Below are positions 52,901-58,337 of a stretch of 64,000 bases of DNA, in pieces. The first letter of the stretch is position 1, and the number at the start of each line of letters is the position of its first letter. The translations under genes and the position numbers were made by a program. The stretch lies in contig CM000430.1 of assembly GCA_000165345.1 (NCBI GenBank), positions 320,001-384,000 of the forward strand, in the 5' to 3' direction. A model generated the notes under the pieces. It was not told the DNA's origin. It made no database searches and was given only the letters and a program-made list of their open reading frames with translations.

Positions 52901-53946
52901 TCAGTCTAATGCTTCTTTAATAAGCTTCTTCTGCTCTGGTGTGAGAGACTTTGGAAAACAAATATCAAATTCAAGTATTAGGTCTCCTTTTTGTCCTGGC
53001 TGATTCTTTATTGGCATCCCTTCATTTGGAACAATTTTTCTTGTCTTTGGATTTACAATTTCCTTGATTGGGATCTGTAAGTTACGATTGTCAAGAGTTG
53101 TCACAGGACATGTAAAACCTGTTAGCGCTCTAACTAAGGGGATAGTTACCTTCATAATAAGATGGCAGTCATCTCTTGTGAATCTGGGGTGAGTCTTTGT
53201 TTGAATTATAAGTACTAAATCTCCAGGCGACGTTCCAGGTGATTCCTGATCACCTTCTCCAGAATATGTTAACTTGGTCCCGTCTTTCCAGCCAGGTTTT
53301 ATTTCTACCTCGACTATATTTTCTTCATTCCTCACTTTATGTTCTATAAACCTTTTTCTTGTAACCTTAATTTTCTTACGTTTCCCTAAGTATAGCTCTT
53401 CTAAAGTTACCAATAATGGGACTTCGTGCGATCTTGGGGCGTGTCTAGTTGAAGAACGCCCATTATGCGTAGATGACATGTGTACTTGTCTGAACATTCC
53501 ACTTGGGCCACTAAAGAAAAATGAGCTTCCTTCTTCATCACCAAAACTACCTGCCCTATCTGAGGCGAAAAATCGTGCAAAAATTTCATTTGGATCAATG
53601 AATATTCCCCCACCCATTCCTCCTTGATCTGATGTAGGACCTCCAAATCCAGCTTGTAATCCTTCCGAGCCATATTGATTATATATATTTCGTTTCTCTT
53701 TATCGCTCAAAACCTCATAAGCTTCACCCAGTTCTTTGAACATCTCTTCAGCCTTTTTCTTACCCTCAGGAGTAGAATTTGCTTGCTTATCGGGATGGTA
53801 TTTAATAGCAAGTTTTCTATAGGCACGCTTGATATCTTGATCAGATGCGTCCTTAGAAATACCCAGAATTTTGTAATAATCCTACAAATTAGATAATGTA
53901 ACAGTTAAAAACTTTAAACGAAAAACTAGCAACTTACCTTACCCAT
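52901..53946 (-). CDS. DNAJ: DnaJ/Hsp40, type II (J domain, Gly/Phe-rich linker, C-terminal substrate-binding domains). Two exons: complement(join(52901..53881,53938..53946)).
   Basis: Exon 1 is ATGGGTAAG (MGK) followed by GTAAGT. A 56-nt intron ends in TTTGTAG. Exon 2 [36 protein letters not shown]...[13 protein letters not shown] is a canonical J domain with HPD. Without splicing the frame stops after 6 codons. Confidence 0.88.
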
Positions 53947-54241
53947 TTATTACTTCAATATGTTAAATTTAAAGATAAATTACAAAAAAGAAAAAAAATG
54001 TTGAGAAGTGGTTATTTTAAAATTGACTTTTCTCCCCATCAAAATTTTTAGACAATACCGGTAATTTGACTTAAATTAATTGTTTAATACGAAAAAACAA
54101 TTTAGGTTAACAATTAAATGATATACGTAGATATAGTATTTAACTCATTCTTTTCTATTATAGTGAATAAACTAAACTTTAATATTTTGGGCTATTATTT
54201 TACTGATTGTTTGCCCTGAAATGGCAAAATTTGATACTAAG

Positions 54242-55229
54242 CTAGTCTGATTTTGAGAGTATTCTATTCCTTAAAGTTTCTATAACTTTTTCATTTGCTG
54301 CAACAAAATATGGATTAATTAGAACTTCTTTATTGTAGGTAAGTGGTTCCCCTAGTTTGAACTGGGTTTCTGATCCAGAAAAAAATGTTTCAAGCTTGTA
54401 AATATCACCGCAAGTTTGCCGTATAATAATATGGCTCGCACAAGTGTCCCATTCCATACAGTCATGAAACCTTGGATAGATATCAGCACGACTTTCAATA
54501 AGTTCAATAAATTTAATCGATGATCCGAATGGAATTTTAATATTGTTTTGGAAGAATTTCTCTGAGAATAAGTCTAAAATGGGGCATTTATAATTATGAG
54601 ATTTTAGTATTCTAATCACTCCATTATTGGGAAATGGTTTATTTGATTTGGGGATAAATTCAAGTGAGGTTTTGCCACAAATTACGTTAGAAGAATTTAA
54701 TGTAGCAATTTTATAAGCTCCTCCTAAATTATTAAACGAAAAAAATGATATTCCAGTATTTGGAATCGATACAACTCCAAGGGTTGGTTTGCCATTTTCA
54801 CAAAGTCCAATATTCACAGTGAATTCACCGTTTCGCCTCAAAAATTCTTTTGTACCATCAAGAGGATCAATGAGCCAACAAATCCTGAAAAAAATTAAAT
54901 TTTTTAGTTTAGTTTACAATAACTTACTTATACTTTTGCCTATTTTCCCAAGTATCAGTTTCCGATTCTTCTGAAATTATTGGTATTTGCGGCCACTTTG
55001 AAGAGAGTTTAGCACAAATGATTTCATTCGCATTTAAATCTGCTGTTGTGACTGGAGAGTTATCTTTATCCTTGTAATTAATTCTTAGTTCCGCATCAAT
55101 ATTTTTGTAAATTTCCATAATAACTTTGCTAGCAAGAAACCCAATTTCGACAACCTCCCTAGCAGAAATGACCACTTTACTGTCTAAATTAGTTTCGTAA
55201 CACAATTTATTAAATTCATCTAAGCTCAT
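54242..55229 (-). CDS. 3'(2'),5'-bisphosphate nucleotidase / inositol monophosphatase family (HAL2/BPNT1-like). Two exons: complement(join(54242..54884,54928..55229)).
   Basis: Exon 1 ...INYKDKDNSPVTTADLNANEII... matches Hal2 ITKNDNSPVTTGDYAAQTII. Donor TATAA|GTAAGT, 43-nt intron, acceptor TTTCAG. Exon 2 starts (K)ICWLIDPLDGTKEFLRRNGEFTVNIGL (W-x-DPLDGTKEF metal-binding motif). C-terminal MEWDTCASHIII. The ORF track splits it into two ORFs, the second starting on a TTG. Confidence 0.8.
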
Positions 55230-55294
55230 TTTTAACTATTTAATAAAAGAAAGCGCGATTAAAGAATAATTATAATGAAAGTAAAATGAGTTAA

Positions 55295-56004: not shown

Positions 56005-56308
56005 AAAACCTACAAATTTGTAATAATTAATTGATTGAATTTTCTTACATATTTTCTAATATTAATCTATTAATAATTAAATAGAATGTTTGTGGCGGGT
56101 TGGTACTTGCTCTACTTTGTCACTAAATAAAATAATTCAAAATATAATCTGGTGCATACAGCTTAATAGAGTAAAACTCTCTAACCGATTAATTTTATGC
56201 ATAGTTTTCGTCACGTATATGAACATAGAATAATAATGTAGATGATTATTTAGAAGTTGAGTTCCCGCCCACACGTGTCAATTGTTTTGATTTGTTATAT
56301 ATGAAATA

Positions 56309-56356
56309 TTTAAATAAATAAATATAAATATAAATATAAGTATAAATATATATATT
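56309..56356. repeat. Imperfect (AAATA/TAAATA)n microsatellite in the divergent RNF5/NDR-kinase promoter
   Basis: taaataaataaatataaatataaatataagtataaatatatatat. Confidence 0.85.
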
Positions 56357-56706
56357 CGTTATTGAAGTTGAAATTAGCATTCTATATCCGCATTCCTTTG
56401 TTCAAGGCATGTATTTGTTACTGATGCTTGTATTTTAAATATTCTTTCCTCCATCTTTTCCTTTTTTGTTGAGCAGTATTAATTAAAATCTAATTCTTTA
56501 AAAGTATTAAACTTGTGCACTCGCGTTAAAATTAATTACATTGATAAATCCAATAATACTTTGTATTTATTTTATTGAAATTTTTAAAGATTCTTACATG
56601 TATTGTTTCCAAGTGGACGTACACTTATGTATGCATATTACATAAGCGATATAATATTTGAAGTAGTTTATTATATTGAGAGAAATTTCAAAGTTATACA
56701 ATAGTA

Positions 56707-58337
56707 ATGAACAATAATTCAAAAAGGTAGGTAAATAATTTGCTTAAATATAAAAGATACTTTAAAATAAACATAACAAATATTAATGTTTTTTTTTGGA
56801 TTTTTAACAGGGCTCTAAAGTTAAACCTTCTTGATAACATTGAAAATCTTAAACAAAGCGTGTTGCTGAATAAGGCATCAATAGAGACAAATTATTTGGA
56901 AAGATGCGAGAAAGCAACAAAACATTGCATTACTAAAAATAATCACAAAGATGAGAATGAGGATAACTTAAGGCTGTTGTAAGTTAGGAAGGAGCTTTTA
57001 AAATAAACTTTCATTCAATAATAGGAGAAAAAGAGTTTCAATTAAGGATTTTAAAATTCTAAGCCCAATTGGCGCGGGAGCATTTGGTATAATTAGACTT
57101 GCGGAATGCAGGAACACAGGCAGCATTTATGCGCTAAAGCAAATGAGAAAAAGTATTATCAGAACAAAAAATCAGCTTGAAAGGATATACAATGAGAGAG
57201 CACTCCTGGCTCAAAATGCATCCGACTTTGTTGTAAAGTTATTTTACACATTTCAAGATGATAAACACTTATACCAAGTAATGGAGTATTTGCCTGGAGG
57301 GGACTTGATGTCATATTTAATAAAATATGATAAATTTAGTGAAGAAGACACTAGATTCTACATGGCGCAATTGGTTCATGCCGTTGATTTAGTTCATCAG
57401 TTAGGGTTTGTACACAGAGATGTAAAACCAGATAACATTGTTCTTGATTCTAAGGGGCATCTCAAATTATTAGATTTTGGGCTTTGCAAGTTTTCTCCAC
57501 TAATTGAAGGAGACGAAAATAGAGAATACCAAACAGAAAATCATTTAAGATGTGTCAATTTAAACGCTAAATCACATAAAGATAGTAATAAAGCTTCTGA
57601 AATTTCCTTTAATGAGAACAACGAAAACAAAAGAATTAACAAAGAACTTTATCGAGGATCAAATTTACTAGAAGAAAAGAATTGCCAAAATGAAGATTTA
57701 AATACTTCTCTGAAGCATTTGGACAGAAAGACAATTCATTCTACTGTAGGAACCCCACAGTATATGGCACCAGAAATATTTCTCAGACAAGGGTATACAC
57801 ATCTTGTAGATTGGTGGAGCGTGGGAATACTGATGTATGAATGTCTTTATGGAGGAGTACCATTTAATGATGATACGCATAACCCAATTAAAGTCGCAAT
57901 AAAAGTAATGCAGTGGGAAAAGTTATTATTACTCCCACATCCATGTAGAAAAATTTCGCCCGAAGCACTAGATCTACTAAAAAATTTATTGTGCCATCCT
58001 TCAAAAAGGTTTGATGGTGAACAGATTAAAAAGCATCCTTTTTTCAATGGTAAGTTTATAAATTTCGGTTAGTTTATTGAATTTATAACTTATGATAGAA
58101 ATTGATTGGGATAAATTAAGACAATGCCCTGCTCCATTCAACAAACAGATTAATGAGAATATATATAAAAGCAATGTTACGGCAGCAGAACTAATTGATG
58201 AGTCTCCAAACAACACAAGATATGGTGTTCAGGGTTCTTCACTAGTTGATATAAATTTCTTGGATTATACTTATAGGAATAAAGATCGTAATAATGATCC
58301 TATATCAATAGGAGAGGCCATTAAAATGTGCGGATGA
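56707..58337 (+). CDS. NDR/LATS-family (AGC) Ser/Thr protein kinase. Four exons: join(56707..56726,56811..56978,57025..58049,58099..58337).
   Basis: Exon 1 is MNNNSK followed by GTAGGT. Exon 2 is ...LERCEKATKHCITK...EDNLRLL. Exon 3 is RKRVSIKDFKILSPIGAGAFGIIRLAECRNTGSIYALKQMRKS...HRDVKPDNIVLDSKGHLKLLDFGLC...TVGTPQYMAPE..., collinear with human NDR1 [47 protein letters not shown]...[25 protein letters not shown]...TVGTPDYIAPE. It has the NDR-type activation-segment insert. Exon 4 (E)IDWDKLRQCPAPF...FLDYTYRNKDR matches VDWEHIRERPAAI...FINYTYKRFEG. All junctions are phase-consistent and the RLL|RKR junction is supported by homology. Confidence 0.8.

What the first reader, a model, noticed from the sequence alone, without database searches (positions are those of the whole stretch)
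52901..58337. Four consecutive intron-containing genes that the ORF track fragments or truncates
DnaJ (1 intron after the MGK micro-exon), a HAL2/BPNT1-like nucleotidase (1 intron), RNF5 (2 introns, with the TM anchor on its own exon) and an NDR-family kinase (3 introns, including a 20-nt first exon) sit back to back. All use 43-84 nt introns with GTAAGT/GTAGGT donors and YAG or AAG acceptors. In three of them the ORF-finder stop codon is the TAA embedded in a GTAAGT donor. Together with TAD2 (3 introns), ORC4 (1) and a possible DPM2-like gene, at least six of about 40 genes are spliced. Any gene model built from ORFs alone would lose J domains, TM anchors and N-terminal regulatory regions.
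Basis: partly seen in the sequence, partly recalled or inferred. Interest (0 to 1): 0.6.

Follow-up and report, generated by a model that had tools for sequence, protein, structure and literature searches.

The report
Known short introns in Cryptosporidium genes
The four neighbouring genes really are interrupted by seven tiny introns, but this is ordinary and already-annotated gene structure on Cryptosporidium parvum chromosome 2; the only new points are small annotation corrections.

Summary
The window is Cryptosporidium parvum chromosome 2. It is identical to CP044421.1 (IOWA-ATCC) over the 17.3 kb compared. They are 43-84 nt long, with six GTAAGT donors, one GTAGGT donor and seven YAG acceptors. 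My spliced translations (329, 314, 206 and 483 aa) match deposited C. parvum proteins exactly. Every intron keeps its position and phase in C. felis, C. ryanae and C. andersoni, while its length changes freely.

This is ordinary spliceosomal splicing in genes cgd2_1800 to cgd2_1830, and it is already known.

- The stop codon sits inside the donor in two genes, not three.
- The nucleotidase is CysQ-type, not HAL2/BPNT1-type.
- None of these seven acceptors is AAG. AAG acceptors occur in ORC4 and two other genes.

Points worth keeping:
- RNF5 intron 2, which gives the membrane-anchor exon, is missing from most reference annotations, yet the anchor is conserved from Cryptosporidium to animals.
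- Some annotations fuse RNF5 to CysQ, probably wrongly.
- The truncated kinase model led a 2011 kinome paper to call it "PKA-like, no GxGxxG".
- A small two-exon DPM2-like gene at 26629-26893 appears to be unannotated.

Seven of about 38 genes in the window are spliced.

The parts
52901..53946 (-). DnaJ/Hsp40 class B gene (cgd2_1800), 329 aa. Exon 1 is 53938-53946 (MGK), the intron is 53882-53937 (56 nt, GTAAGT...TAG, phase 0), and exon 2 is 52901-53881.
   Evidence: Model. Exact match to C. parvum/C. hominis 329-aa proteins. Pfam DnaJ at 4-71 and DnaJ_C at 156-313. PDB 2q2g is the C. parvum C-terminal fragment. The MGK exon followed by an intron is conserved in C. felis and C. ryanae.
54242..55229 (-). 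CysQ-type 3'(2'),5'-bisphosphate nucleotidase gene (cgd2_1810), 314 aa. Exon 1 is 54928-55229, the intron is 54885-54927 (43 nt, GTAAGT...CAG, phase 2), and exon 2 is 54242-54884.
   Evidence: Model. Exact match to EAZ51379.1 and QOY43052.1. Pfam Inositol_P spans the junction. TIGR01331 CysQ scores 192 bits against 68 bits for HAL2. PDB 3b8b CysQ scores 6e-42. The intron is conserved in three species at 44, 79 and 49 nt.
55295..56004 (-). RNF5/RNF185-like RING E3 ligase gene (cgd2_1820), 206 aa. Exon 1 is 55825-56004; intron 1 is 55780-55824 (45 nt, phase 0); exon 2 is 55425-55779; intron 2 is 55381-55424 (44 nt, phase 1); exon 3 is 55295-55380 and encodes the C-terminal membrane anchor.
   Evidence: Model. 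Exact match to WRK30971.1 only; most C. parvum records give 200 aa by reading through intron 2. The anchor sequence is conserved in Cryptosporidium, Theileria, Babesia and animal RNF185. Both introns are conserved in three species. Hydropathy is 2.37 for the spliced tail and 1.12 for the read-through tail.
56707..58337 (+). NDR-family AGC kinase gene (cgd2_1830), 483 aa. Exons are 56707-56726 (20 nt), 56811-56978, 57025-58049 and 58099-58337. Introns are 56727-56810 (84 nt, GTAGGT...CAG), 56979-57024 (46 nt) and 58050-58098 (49 nt).
   Evidence: Model. Exact match to QOY43050.1 and others. Best solved relatives are Cbk1 (3.8e-83) and STK38/NDR1 (5.2e-79). All three introns and the 20-nt exon are conserved in C. 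felis, C. ryanae and C. andersoni.
56005..56706 (.). Intergenic region of 702 nt between the divergently transcribed RNF5 and NDR genes. It is AT-rich, with two inverted GGCGGG-type boxes near 56092 and 56262.
   Evidence: Read directly from the sequence. The three intergenic stretches of this region taken together have 23% GC. No function was tested.
22959..23718 (+). TAD2-like deaminase gene, 204 aa, with 3 introns: 23013-23062, 23174-23221 and 23433-23479.
   Evidence: This is the only model that fits the annotated span and product length. Exact match to QOY43070.1. Pfam dCMP_cyt_deam_1.
9075..10636 (-). ORC4-like AAA+ gene, 503 aa, with 1 intron at 10554-10603 (50 nt, GTAAGT...AAG acceptor).
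   Evidence: Model. Exact match to QOY43078.1, named 'origin recognition complex 4 orc4p-like'.
26629..26893 (-). Candidate unannotated two-exon gene for a 72-aa protein with two hydrophobic segments (DPM2-like?). Exon 1 is 26783-26893, the intron is 26737-26782 (46 nt, GTAAGT...AAG), and exon 2 is 26629-26736.
   Evidence: Model. The protein is absent from the protein collection, and no gene is called here in four NCBI annotations. An ortholog in L019 keeps the spliced frame although its intron is 47 nt rather than 46, with 20 synonymous against 9 non-synonymous codon differences. Pfam DPM2 is the top hit but weak (E = 0.05 and 0.7).

Best explanation
The region holds four ordinary protein-coding genes of Cryptosporidium parvum chromosome 2. 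They are cgd2_1800 (class B DnaJ/Hsp40), cgd2_1810 (CysQ-type bisphosphate nucleotidase), cgd2_1820 (RNF5-like membrane-anchored RING ligase) and cgd2_1830 (NDR kinase).

Their coding sequences are interrupted by seven very short (43-84 nt), AT-rich, GT-AG spliceosomal introns. These are removed from the pre-mRNA to give continuous reading frames.

A bacterial-style ORF finder breaks these genes because it cannot splice. That the four sit side by side is most likely chance.

What is shown: the exon-intron structures, the protein identities and cross-species conservation. What is inferred: that splicing occurs in vivo. This rests on the published statement that introns in the IOWA-ATCC annotation are RNA-seq supported. 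That annotation covers six of the seven introns. For RNF5 intron 2 the inference rests on conservation alone.
For: Identity of the window:
- The window is identical to C. parvum CP044421.1 and CP029781.1 over 17.3 kb.

Gene models:
- Spliced translations of 329, 314, 206 and 483 aa are exact matches to deposited C. parvum proteins.
- Annotated gene spans and product lengths in three assemblies agree with my exon coordinates.
- Pfam domains run uninterrupted across the junctions.

Cross-species conservation:
- All seven introns keep position and phase in C. felis and C. ryanae; the six outside DnaJ also do so in C. andersoni, where DnaJ is not in the locus fetched.
- Their lengths change without respect for the reading frame. 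RNF5 intron 2, for example, is 44, 45, 47 and 99 nt.
- Intron interiors are 58-59% identical between species, against 74-75% for the flanking exons.

Composition:
- Introns have 22.6% GC and exons 35.1%. The published genome-wide values are 22% and 32% (PMC4637869).

RNF5 anchor:
- The exon-3 product is conserved in apicomplexan and animal RNF5/RNF185. The read-through tail is not.

Literature:
- RNA-seq re-annotation found introns in 10.8% of C. parvum genes.
Against: - No RNA reads could be examined here, so splicing in vivo is not directly shown.
- The RNA-seq-guided IOWA-ATCC annotation does not include RNF5 intron 2 (200-aa model). The junction may simply have been missed. Alternatively the intron may often be retained.
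- GTAAGT as a hexamer is not enriched in the window: 26 found against 23.5 +/- 4.9 expected. The motif alone is therefore not evidence.
Confidence: 0.95

Rival explanations
1. RNF5 intron 2 is not normally removed. The real product would be the 200-aa protein of the reference annotations, without a membrane anchor. Alternatively, retention is regulated and gives soluble and anchored isoforms.
For: Four C. parvum annotations, including the RNA-seq-guided IOWA-ATCC one, plus C. tyzzeri and two C. hominis annotations, give 200 aa. The C. bovis model also reads through.
Against: The read-through tail SKFSLKYIIIITLLQMKNLEIS has no counterpart in any ortholog. The spliced tail is conserved down to the terminal LF[LI]E-stop in four Cryptosporidium species, and it aligns with the anchor of Theileria, Babesia and animal RNF185. 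The intron is 44, 45, 47 and 99 nt in the four species, so retention would give a different product in each. Maximum hydropathy is 2.37 for the spliced tail and 1.12 for the read-through tail.
Confidence: 0.08
2. RNF5 and the nucleotidase form one fused gene, as annotated in C. hominis (512 aa), chipmunk genotype I (511 aa) and C. ubiquitum (477 aa).
For: Such fused proteins are deposited. In C. parvum a GT (GTTATT) follows codon GIV|, and an AG lies in frame 6 nt before the nucleotidase ATG.
Against: The donor GTTATT is weak and is absent at that codon in C. ryanae (GCA) and C. andersoni (ATT). The RNF5 stop codon and full anchor are conserved in all four species. The IOWA-ATCC paper warns that overlapping RNA-seq reads create false fusions between adjacent genes in this compact genome (PMC8744675). 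Separate 314-aa and 206-aa or 200-aa genes are annotated in all C. parvum assemblies.
Confidence: 0.03
3. The interruptions are not introns. They would be frameshifts or stops from sequencing errors or from decaying pseudogenes.
For: Without splicing, every gene carries in-frame stops.
Against: The sequence is identical in three independent assemblies. Every interruption is bounded by GT...AG, restores the frame exactly, and is matched at the same codon and phase in species as distant as C. andersoni. Catalytic and structural motifs lie on both sides of the junctions.
Confidence: 0.01
4. The run of four spliced genes reflects a regional property, such as a chromosome segment that escaped intron loss, rather than chance.
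For: Given 7 spliced genes among 38 in the window, a run of four or more has probability 0.015 under random order.
Against: The run was picked after the fact. Genome-wide, with 10.8-18% of about 3865 genes spliced, at least one such run is expected with probability 0.36-0.97 (frequency from PMC4637869). The four genes are functionally unrelated and lie on both strands.
Confidence: 0.1

Closest known systems
Annotated C. parvum genes cgd2_1800 to cgd2_1830 (CPATCC_000754-000756 region of CP044421.1; also CP141119.1 and CP029781.1)
   Same: The DNA is identical. The DnaJ (329 aa), CysQ (314 aa) and NDR (483 aa) models are identical to mine. RNF5 is identical to WRK30971.1 (206 aa).
   Different: Most records give RNF5 as 200 aa, without intron 2 and the anchor exon. 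Older Iowa II and TU502 records give truncated DnaJ (326 and 280 aa) and truncated NDR (381 and 309 aa).
Short spliceosomal introns of Cryptosporidium as described in the RNA-seq re-annotations (Isaza et al. 2015, PMC4637869; Baptista et al. 2022, PMC8744675)
   Same: GT-AG boundaries and about 22% GC. A minority of genes is affected: 10.8% genome-wide, and 7 of 38 here.
   Different: At 43-84 nt, these introns are shorter than the published mean of 99 nt. Otherwise there is no difference.
RNF5 / RNF185 / plant RMA1 tail-anchored RING E3 ligases
   Same: An N-terminal C3HC4 RING, a conserved PLYGRG...DPR...PRP motif, and a single C-terminal membrane anchor.
   Different: In Cryptosporidium the anchor is on its own 86-nt exon behind a 44-nt intron. 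No activity or localisation was tested.
NDR/LATS kinases (yeast Cbk1, human STK38)
   Same: Best solved relatives by 20 orders of magnitude over other AGC kinases. Shared features are DFGLC, a roughly 95-residue insert before the activation-loop STVGTP, and a C-terminal FLDYTYR hydrophobic motif (and direct reading).
   Different: The N-terminal regulatory region is short (about 63 residues) and is aligned only from residue 55. MOB binding was not tested.
Bacterial CysQ (TIGR01331; PDB 3b8b) versus eukaryotic HAL2/BPNT1
   Same: It carries the inositol-monophosphatase fold motifs WLIDPLDGT and WDTCA. It is far closer to CysQ than to HAL2 or BPNT1.
   Different: It scores below the CysQ equivalog cut-off (192 against 228.8 bits). 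Unlike bacterial genes, it carries a spliceosomal intron. The intron is not at any T. gondii intron position.

Membership tests
U2-type GT-AG spliceosomal introns | GT at the 5' end and AG at the 3' end, with a consensus-like extended donor | tested here: met
   Six donors are GTAAGT and one is GTAGGT. All seven introns end in YAG.
U2-type GT-AG spliceosomal introns | Removal restores one uninterrupted frame encoding a recognisable protein | tested here: met
   No internal stops remain after splicing. Pfam domains span the junctions, and the products are exact matches to deposited proteins.
U2-type GT-AG spliceosomal introns | Position and phase conserved in related species while length and sequence drift | tested here: met
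   Tested in C. felis, C. ryanae and C. andersoni. Intron identity is 0.58 against 0.75 for exons.
U2-type GT-AG spliceosomal introns | Spliced junctions observed in RNA | not testable with these tools
   No RNA reads were available. The literature states that introns in the IOWA-ATCC annotation are RNA-seq supported. That annotation contains six of the seven.
Class B (type II) DnaJ/Hsp40 | N-terminal J domain with HPD, a G/F-rich linker, a C-terminal substrate-binding domain and no zinc-finger domain | tested here: met
   Pfam DnaJ at 4-71 and DnaJ_C at 156-313, with no DnaJ_CXXCXGXG hit. HPD lies at residues 32-34, upstream of the ORF-finder start at M50. Closest solved relatives are DNAJB13 and DNAJB1.
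CysQ 3'(2'),5'-bisphosphate nucleotidase (TIGR01331) | Score at or above the curated equivalog cut-off | tested here: not met
   192.1 bits against a cut-off of 228.8. It is still the best family by a wide margin.
HAL2/BPNT1-type nucleotidase (TIGR01330) | Best match to the HAL2 family | tested here: not met
   67.7 bits against a cut-off of 267. PDB Hal2 and BPNT1 score about 1e-10, against 6e-42 for CysQ.
RNF5/RNF185/RMA1 | C3HC4 RING plus a C-terminal transmembrane anchor | tested here: met
   RING at 42-80. The anchor LISNFSLFVGIVIMIYLLF has hydropathy 2.37 and aligns with the anchors of named RNF5 and RNF185 proteins. This holds only with intron 2 removed.
NDR/LATS kinases | Kinase domain closest to NDR, an insert between subdomains VII and VIII, activation-loop S-T-V-G-T-P and a hydrophobic motif F-x-x-Y-T-Y-K/R | tested here: met
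   Cbk1 scores 3.8e-83 and STK38 5.2e-79, against 1e-62 or weaker for other AGC kinases. The motifs DFGLC...HSTVGTP and FLDYTYR were read from the model.
NDR/LATS kinases | N-terminal MOB-binding regulatory region | not tested
   Only residues 55 onward align to Cbk1. Residues 7-63 are conserved within Cryptosporidium.
DPM2 (PF07297) | Score above the Pfam gathering threshold | tested here: not met
   14.3 bits (E = 0.05) for C. parvum and 10.6 bits (E = 0.7) for the ortholog, against a cut-off of 27.3. The alignment is colinear over 67 of 75 profile positions.

The most novel reading that the evidence does not exclude
Splicing of the 44-nt RNF5 intron 2 may be regulated. Removal would give the tail-anchored ER ligase. 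Retention would give a soluble 200-aa form. This would explain why RNA-seq-guided annotations disagree. Separately, the reference annotations would lack a real two-exon gene for a 72-aa DPM2-like membrane protein at 26629-26893.
Probability: 0.1. Interest if true: 0.3.

Novelty: already known. Interest (0 to 1): 0.1.

Why it matters
The finding matters little as a discovery. These gene models are already in GenBank, and Cryptosporidium introns have been catalogued with RNA-seq.

It does have practical value as a curation note:
- The RNF5 ortholog in the main reference annotations lacks its conserved membrane anchor.
- Several species carry a probably false RNF5-CysQ fusion.
- The C. felis model translates an in-frame intron.
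- The kinase was misclassified in the literature because of a truncated model.
- A small membrane-protein gene next to OST48 seems to be missing from the annotations.

It also confirms that a bacterial ORF track is not a usable gene model for this genome.

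Tried and rejected
- **GTAAGT enrichment.** The hexamer is not enriched in the window: 26 found against 23.5 expected. I dropped it as evidence.
- **Solved-structure search with the DPM2-like protein.** No match at E <= 10.
- **Word-indexed protein search with the DPM2-like protein.** It found only one exon-level ORF from a related Cryptosporidium.
- **Intron shared with Toxoplasma?** I checked whether the CysQ intron is at the same position as an intron in the T. 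gondii homolog. It is not; T. gondii has about five introns elsewhere. This neither supports nor refutes the published horizontal-transfer claim.
- **Possible 5'UTR intron upstream of the RNF5 ATG.** A 39-nt GTAAGA...TAG stretch lies there (about 56010-56050, minus strand). I did not pursue it, because splicing would create an out-of-frame upstream ATG.
- **Unannotated gap 48616-49570.** No convincing ORF.
- **Rfam scan of the window.** Only one tRNA.
- **Gene tables from Logan assemblies.** They use ORF-only calling and say nothing about introns.

Full report
**Origin of the window**

The window has 30.7% GC and is tightly packed with genes. Exact protein look-ups and contig look-ups place it on Cryptosporidium parvum chromosome 2. 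The 17.3 kb from window 46707 to 64000 has no mismatch to CP029781.1 or CP044421.1 (IOWA-ATCC), and two mismatches to CP141119.1. The four genes are cgd2_1800, cgd2_1810, cgd2_1820 and cgd2_1830. I infer these names from the locus tags CHM_2g1820 and CPHLJ_2g1830 and from papers that use the cgd names.

**The observation**

I rebuilt each model from the sequence.

| Gene | Strand | Exons | Introns | Product |
|---|---|---|---|---|
| DnaJ | - | 53946-53938 (ATG GGT AAG); 53881-52901 | 53882-53937 (56 nt) | 329 aa |
| Nucleotidase | - | 55229-54928; 54884-54242 | 54885-54927 (43 nt) | 314 aa |
| RNF5 | - | 56004-55825; 55779-55425; 55380-55295 | 55780-55824 (45 nt); 55381-55424 (44 nt) | 206 aa |
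| NDR | + | 56707-56726; 56811-56978; 57025-58049; 58099-58337 | 56727-56810 (84 nt); 56979-57024 (46 nt); 58050-58098 (49 nt) | 483 aa |

- Six donors are GTAAGT and one is GTAGGT. Acceptors are three TAG and four CAG.
- No model has an internal stop.
- Pfam domains run across the junctions: DnaJ 4-71 and DnaJ_C 156-313; Inositol_P 29-281; RING 42-80; Pkinase.
- All four translations are exact matches to deposited C. parvum proteins.
- Annotated gene spans in three assemblies coincide with my outer coordinates.

Two details in the finding are inaccurate.
- The read-through stop lies inside the donor hexamer only in the nucleotidase (TAA) and in NDR introns 2 (TAA) and 1 (TAG in GTAGGT). That is two genes, not three.
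- None of these seven acceptors is AAG. AAG acceptors occur in ORC4, in the 1337-aa gene and in the DPM2-like candidate.

**Independent test by comparison between species**

I fetched the syntenic loci of C. felis (L004), C. andersoni (L005) and C. ryanae (L006) through the RNF5 orthologs. For each junction I searched for the GT...AG excision that best restores similarity to the C. parvum protein.

Every intron is found at the same codon and phase. Lengths vary without respect for the reading frame (C. parvum / C. felis / C. andersoni / C. ryanae):

| Intron | Lengths (nt) |
|---|---|
| Nucleotidase | 43 / 44 / 79 / 49 |
| RNF5 intron 1 | 45 / 45 / 61 / 51 |
| RNF5 intron 2 | 44 / 45 / 99 / 47 |
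| NDR intron 3 | 49 / 42 / 84 / 47 |

- The 9-nt MGK exon of DnaJ is conserved in C. felis and C. ryanae. DnaJ is not in the C. andersoni locus fetched.
- The 20-nt first exon of NDR is conserved in all three species, with synonymous changes.
- Intron interiors are 58-59% identical, against 74-75% for the 45-nt exon flanks.
- Introns have 22.6% GC and exons 35.1%. The published genome-wide values are 22% and 32% (PMC4637869).

This is what real spliceosomal introns look like. It excludes sequencing errors and pseudogenes.

**RNA evidence**

I could not examine reads. The RNA-seq re-annotation of C. parvum raised the share of intron-bearing genes from 4.3% to 10.8% (PMC4637869). [quoted passage not shown] Judged by gene span and product length, that annotation contains six of the seven introns.

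**The one disputed intron**

RNF5 intron 2 is absent from the Iowa II and IOWA-ATCC annotations and from two further C. parvum annotations. It is also absent from C. tyzzeri and two C. hominis records. All of these give a 200-aa protein ending SKFSLKYIIIITLLQMKNLEIS.

- The 206-aa form is found in WRK30971.1, C. meleagridis and one C. hominis record. It ends NEELRNKLISNFSLFVGIVIMIYLLFLE.
- That tail aligns with the C-termini of C. felis, C. ryanae, C. andersoni, Theileria, Babesia and animal RNF185. The read-through tail aligns with nothing.
- The tail is a clear membrane segment, with hydropathy 2.37 against 1.12 for the read-through tail.
- The C. felis 220-aa model translates straight through its in-frame 45-nt intron. 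The C. bovis model reads through as well.

A regulated retention cannot be excluded without RNA data.

**False fusions**

RNF5 and the nucleotidase are deposited as single proteins of 477-512 aa in C. hominis, chipmunk genotype I and C. ubiquitum.

- The fusion needs a weak GTTATT donor inside the anchor exon.
- That GT is absent in C. ryanae and C. andersoni. The RNF5 stop codon is conserved in all four species.
- The IOWA-ATCC paper warns of exactly such false fusions.

**Protein identities**

- **DnaJ** is class B. It has a J domain, a G/F-rich linker, DnaJ_C and no zinc finger. Its C-terminal half is PDB 2q2g. The ORF-only model starts at M50 and loses the HPD motif at residues 32-34.
- **The kinase** is closest to Cbk1 (3.8e-83) and STK38/NDR1 (5.2e-79). 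It has DFGLC, a long insert before HSTVGTP, and FLDYTYR near the C-terminus.
  - The old 381-aa Iowa II model starts at M103. That is after the GAGAFG loop (79-84) and the catalytic lysine K101.
  - This explains why the 2011 kinome paper described cgd2_1830 as PKA-like, N-terminally short and lacking GxGxxG (PMC3227725).
- **The nucleotidase** is CysQ-type, not HAL2/BPNT1-type.
  - TIGR01331 scores 192 bits (below its cut-off of 228.8), against 68 bits for TIGR01330.
  - PDB 3b8b CysQ scores 6e-42, against about 1e-10 for Hal2 and BPNT1.
  - It has been proposed as a bacterial transfer into C. parvum (PMC3475487). However, Toxoplasma and another protist have homologs at 37-39% identity.
  - The Cryptosporidium intron is not at any T. 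gondii intron position.

**The wider claims**

- TAD2 (22959-23718, three introns, 204 aa) and ORC4 (9075-10636, one intron with an AAG acceptor, 503 aa) are exact matches to deposited proteins.
- A seventh spliced gene is the 1337-aa IOWA-ATCC model at 33060-37162, with introns at 36552-36596 and 36790-36833.
- About 38 genes are annotated in the window, and 7 are spliced.
- Given 7 of 38, a run of four has probability 0.015. Genome-wide, such a run is expected with probability 0.36-0.97. The adjacency is therefore unremarkable.

**The 'possible DPM2-like gene'**

In the unannotated 0.9-kb gap next to OST48 I found a two-exon reading frame at 26893-26783 and 26736-26629. It is separated by a 46-nt GTAAGT...AAG intron and gives a 72-aa protein with two hydrophobic segments.

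- The protein is not in the protein collection. No gene is called here in four NCBI annotations.
- A related Cryptosporidium contig (L019) keeps the spliced frame although its intron is 47 nt. It shows 20 synonymous against 9 non-synonymous codon differences. That argues for a real gene.
- The DPM2 assignment is weak. Pfam PF07297 is the top hit for C. parvum at E = 0.05, and scores E = 0.7 for the ortholog. Both are below threshold.

**Verdict**

The matter is already known, apart from minor annotation corrections.

Noticed in passing
window 26629-26893 (-): Apparently unannotated two-exon gene for a 72-aa protein with two hydrophobic segments, next to OST48. The 46-nt intron has an AAG acceptor. 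The spliced frame is conserved in a related Cryptosporidium (L019), with 20 synonymous against 9 non-synonymous codon differences. The similarity to DPM2 is only weak (Pfam E = 0.05).
   Followed up: partly
window 55295-55424 (-); L004 6578-6622; C. bovis protein P0043: [quoted passage not shown] The C. felis model translates through its in-frame 45-nt intron 2. The C. bovis model also reads through.
   Followed up: yes
window 55230-55340 (-) and proteins P0017, P0020, P0159: RNF5 and CysQ are annotated as one fused protein (477-512 aa) in C. hominis, chipmunk genotype I and C. ubiquitum. The fusion uses a weak GTTATT donor that is not conserved in C. ryanae or C. andersoni. It is probably a false fusion.
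   Followed up: yes
window 54242-55229 (-): The nucleotidase is bacterial CysQ-type and has been published as a horizontal-transfer candidate (PMC3475487). Yet it carries a genus-wide conserved spliceosomal intron. It also has homologs in Toxoplasma gondii and an MMETSP protist, and the T. gondii introns are at other positions.
   Followed up: partly
window 57143 (M103 of the NDR kinase): The 2011 C. parvum kinome paper (PMC3227725) described cgd2_1830 as PKA-like, N-terminally short and lacking GxGxxG. This follows from the truncated 381-aa model EAZ51381.1. The full model has GAGAFG and is an NDR kinase.
   Followed up: yes
window 56090-56105 and 56260-56275; also about 55245-55255 (-): GC-rich boxes stand out in otherwise AT-rich intergenic DNA. 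TGTGGCGGGTTGG and its inverted partner GTTCCCGCCCACACG lie between RNF5 and NDR. AATCGCGCTTT upstream of CysQ is conserved in C. felis. They may be E2F-like promoter motifs.
   Followed up: no
window 33060-37162 (+): Annotations disagree here. IOWA-ATCC has one 1337-aa gene with two introns (36552-36596 and 36790-36833, the second with an AAG acceptor). Another C. parvum assembly has two genes of 1128 and 170 aa.
   Followed up: partly
window 42904-42988 (+): A single tRNA-Leu (anticodon TAA), 85 nt. It is the only Rfam or ARAGORN hit in the window.
   Followed up: no
window 56010-56050 (-): A 39-nt GTAAGA...TTTGTAG stretch lies just upstream of the RNF5 start codon and could be a 5'UTR intron. 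Splicing it would create an out-of-frame upstream ATG, so it is doubtful.
   Followed up: no
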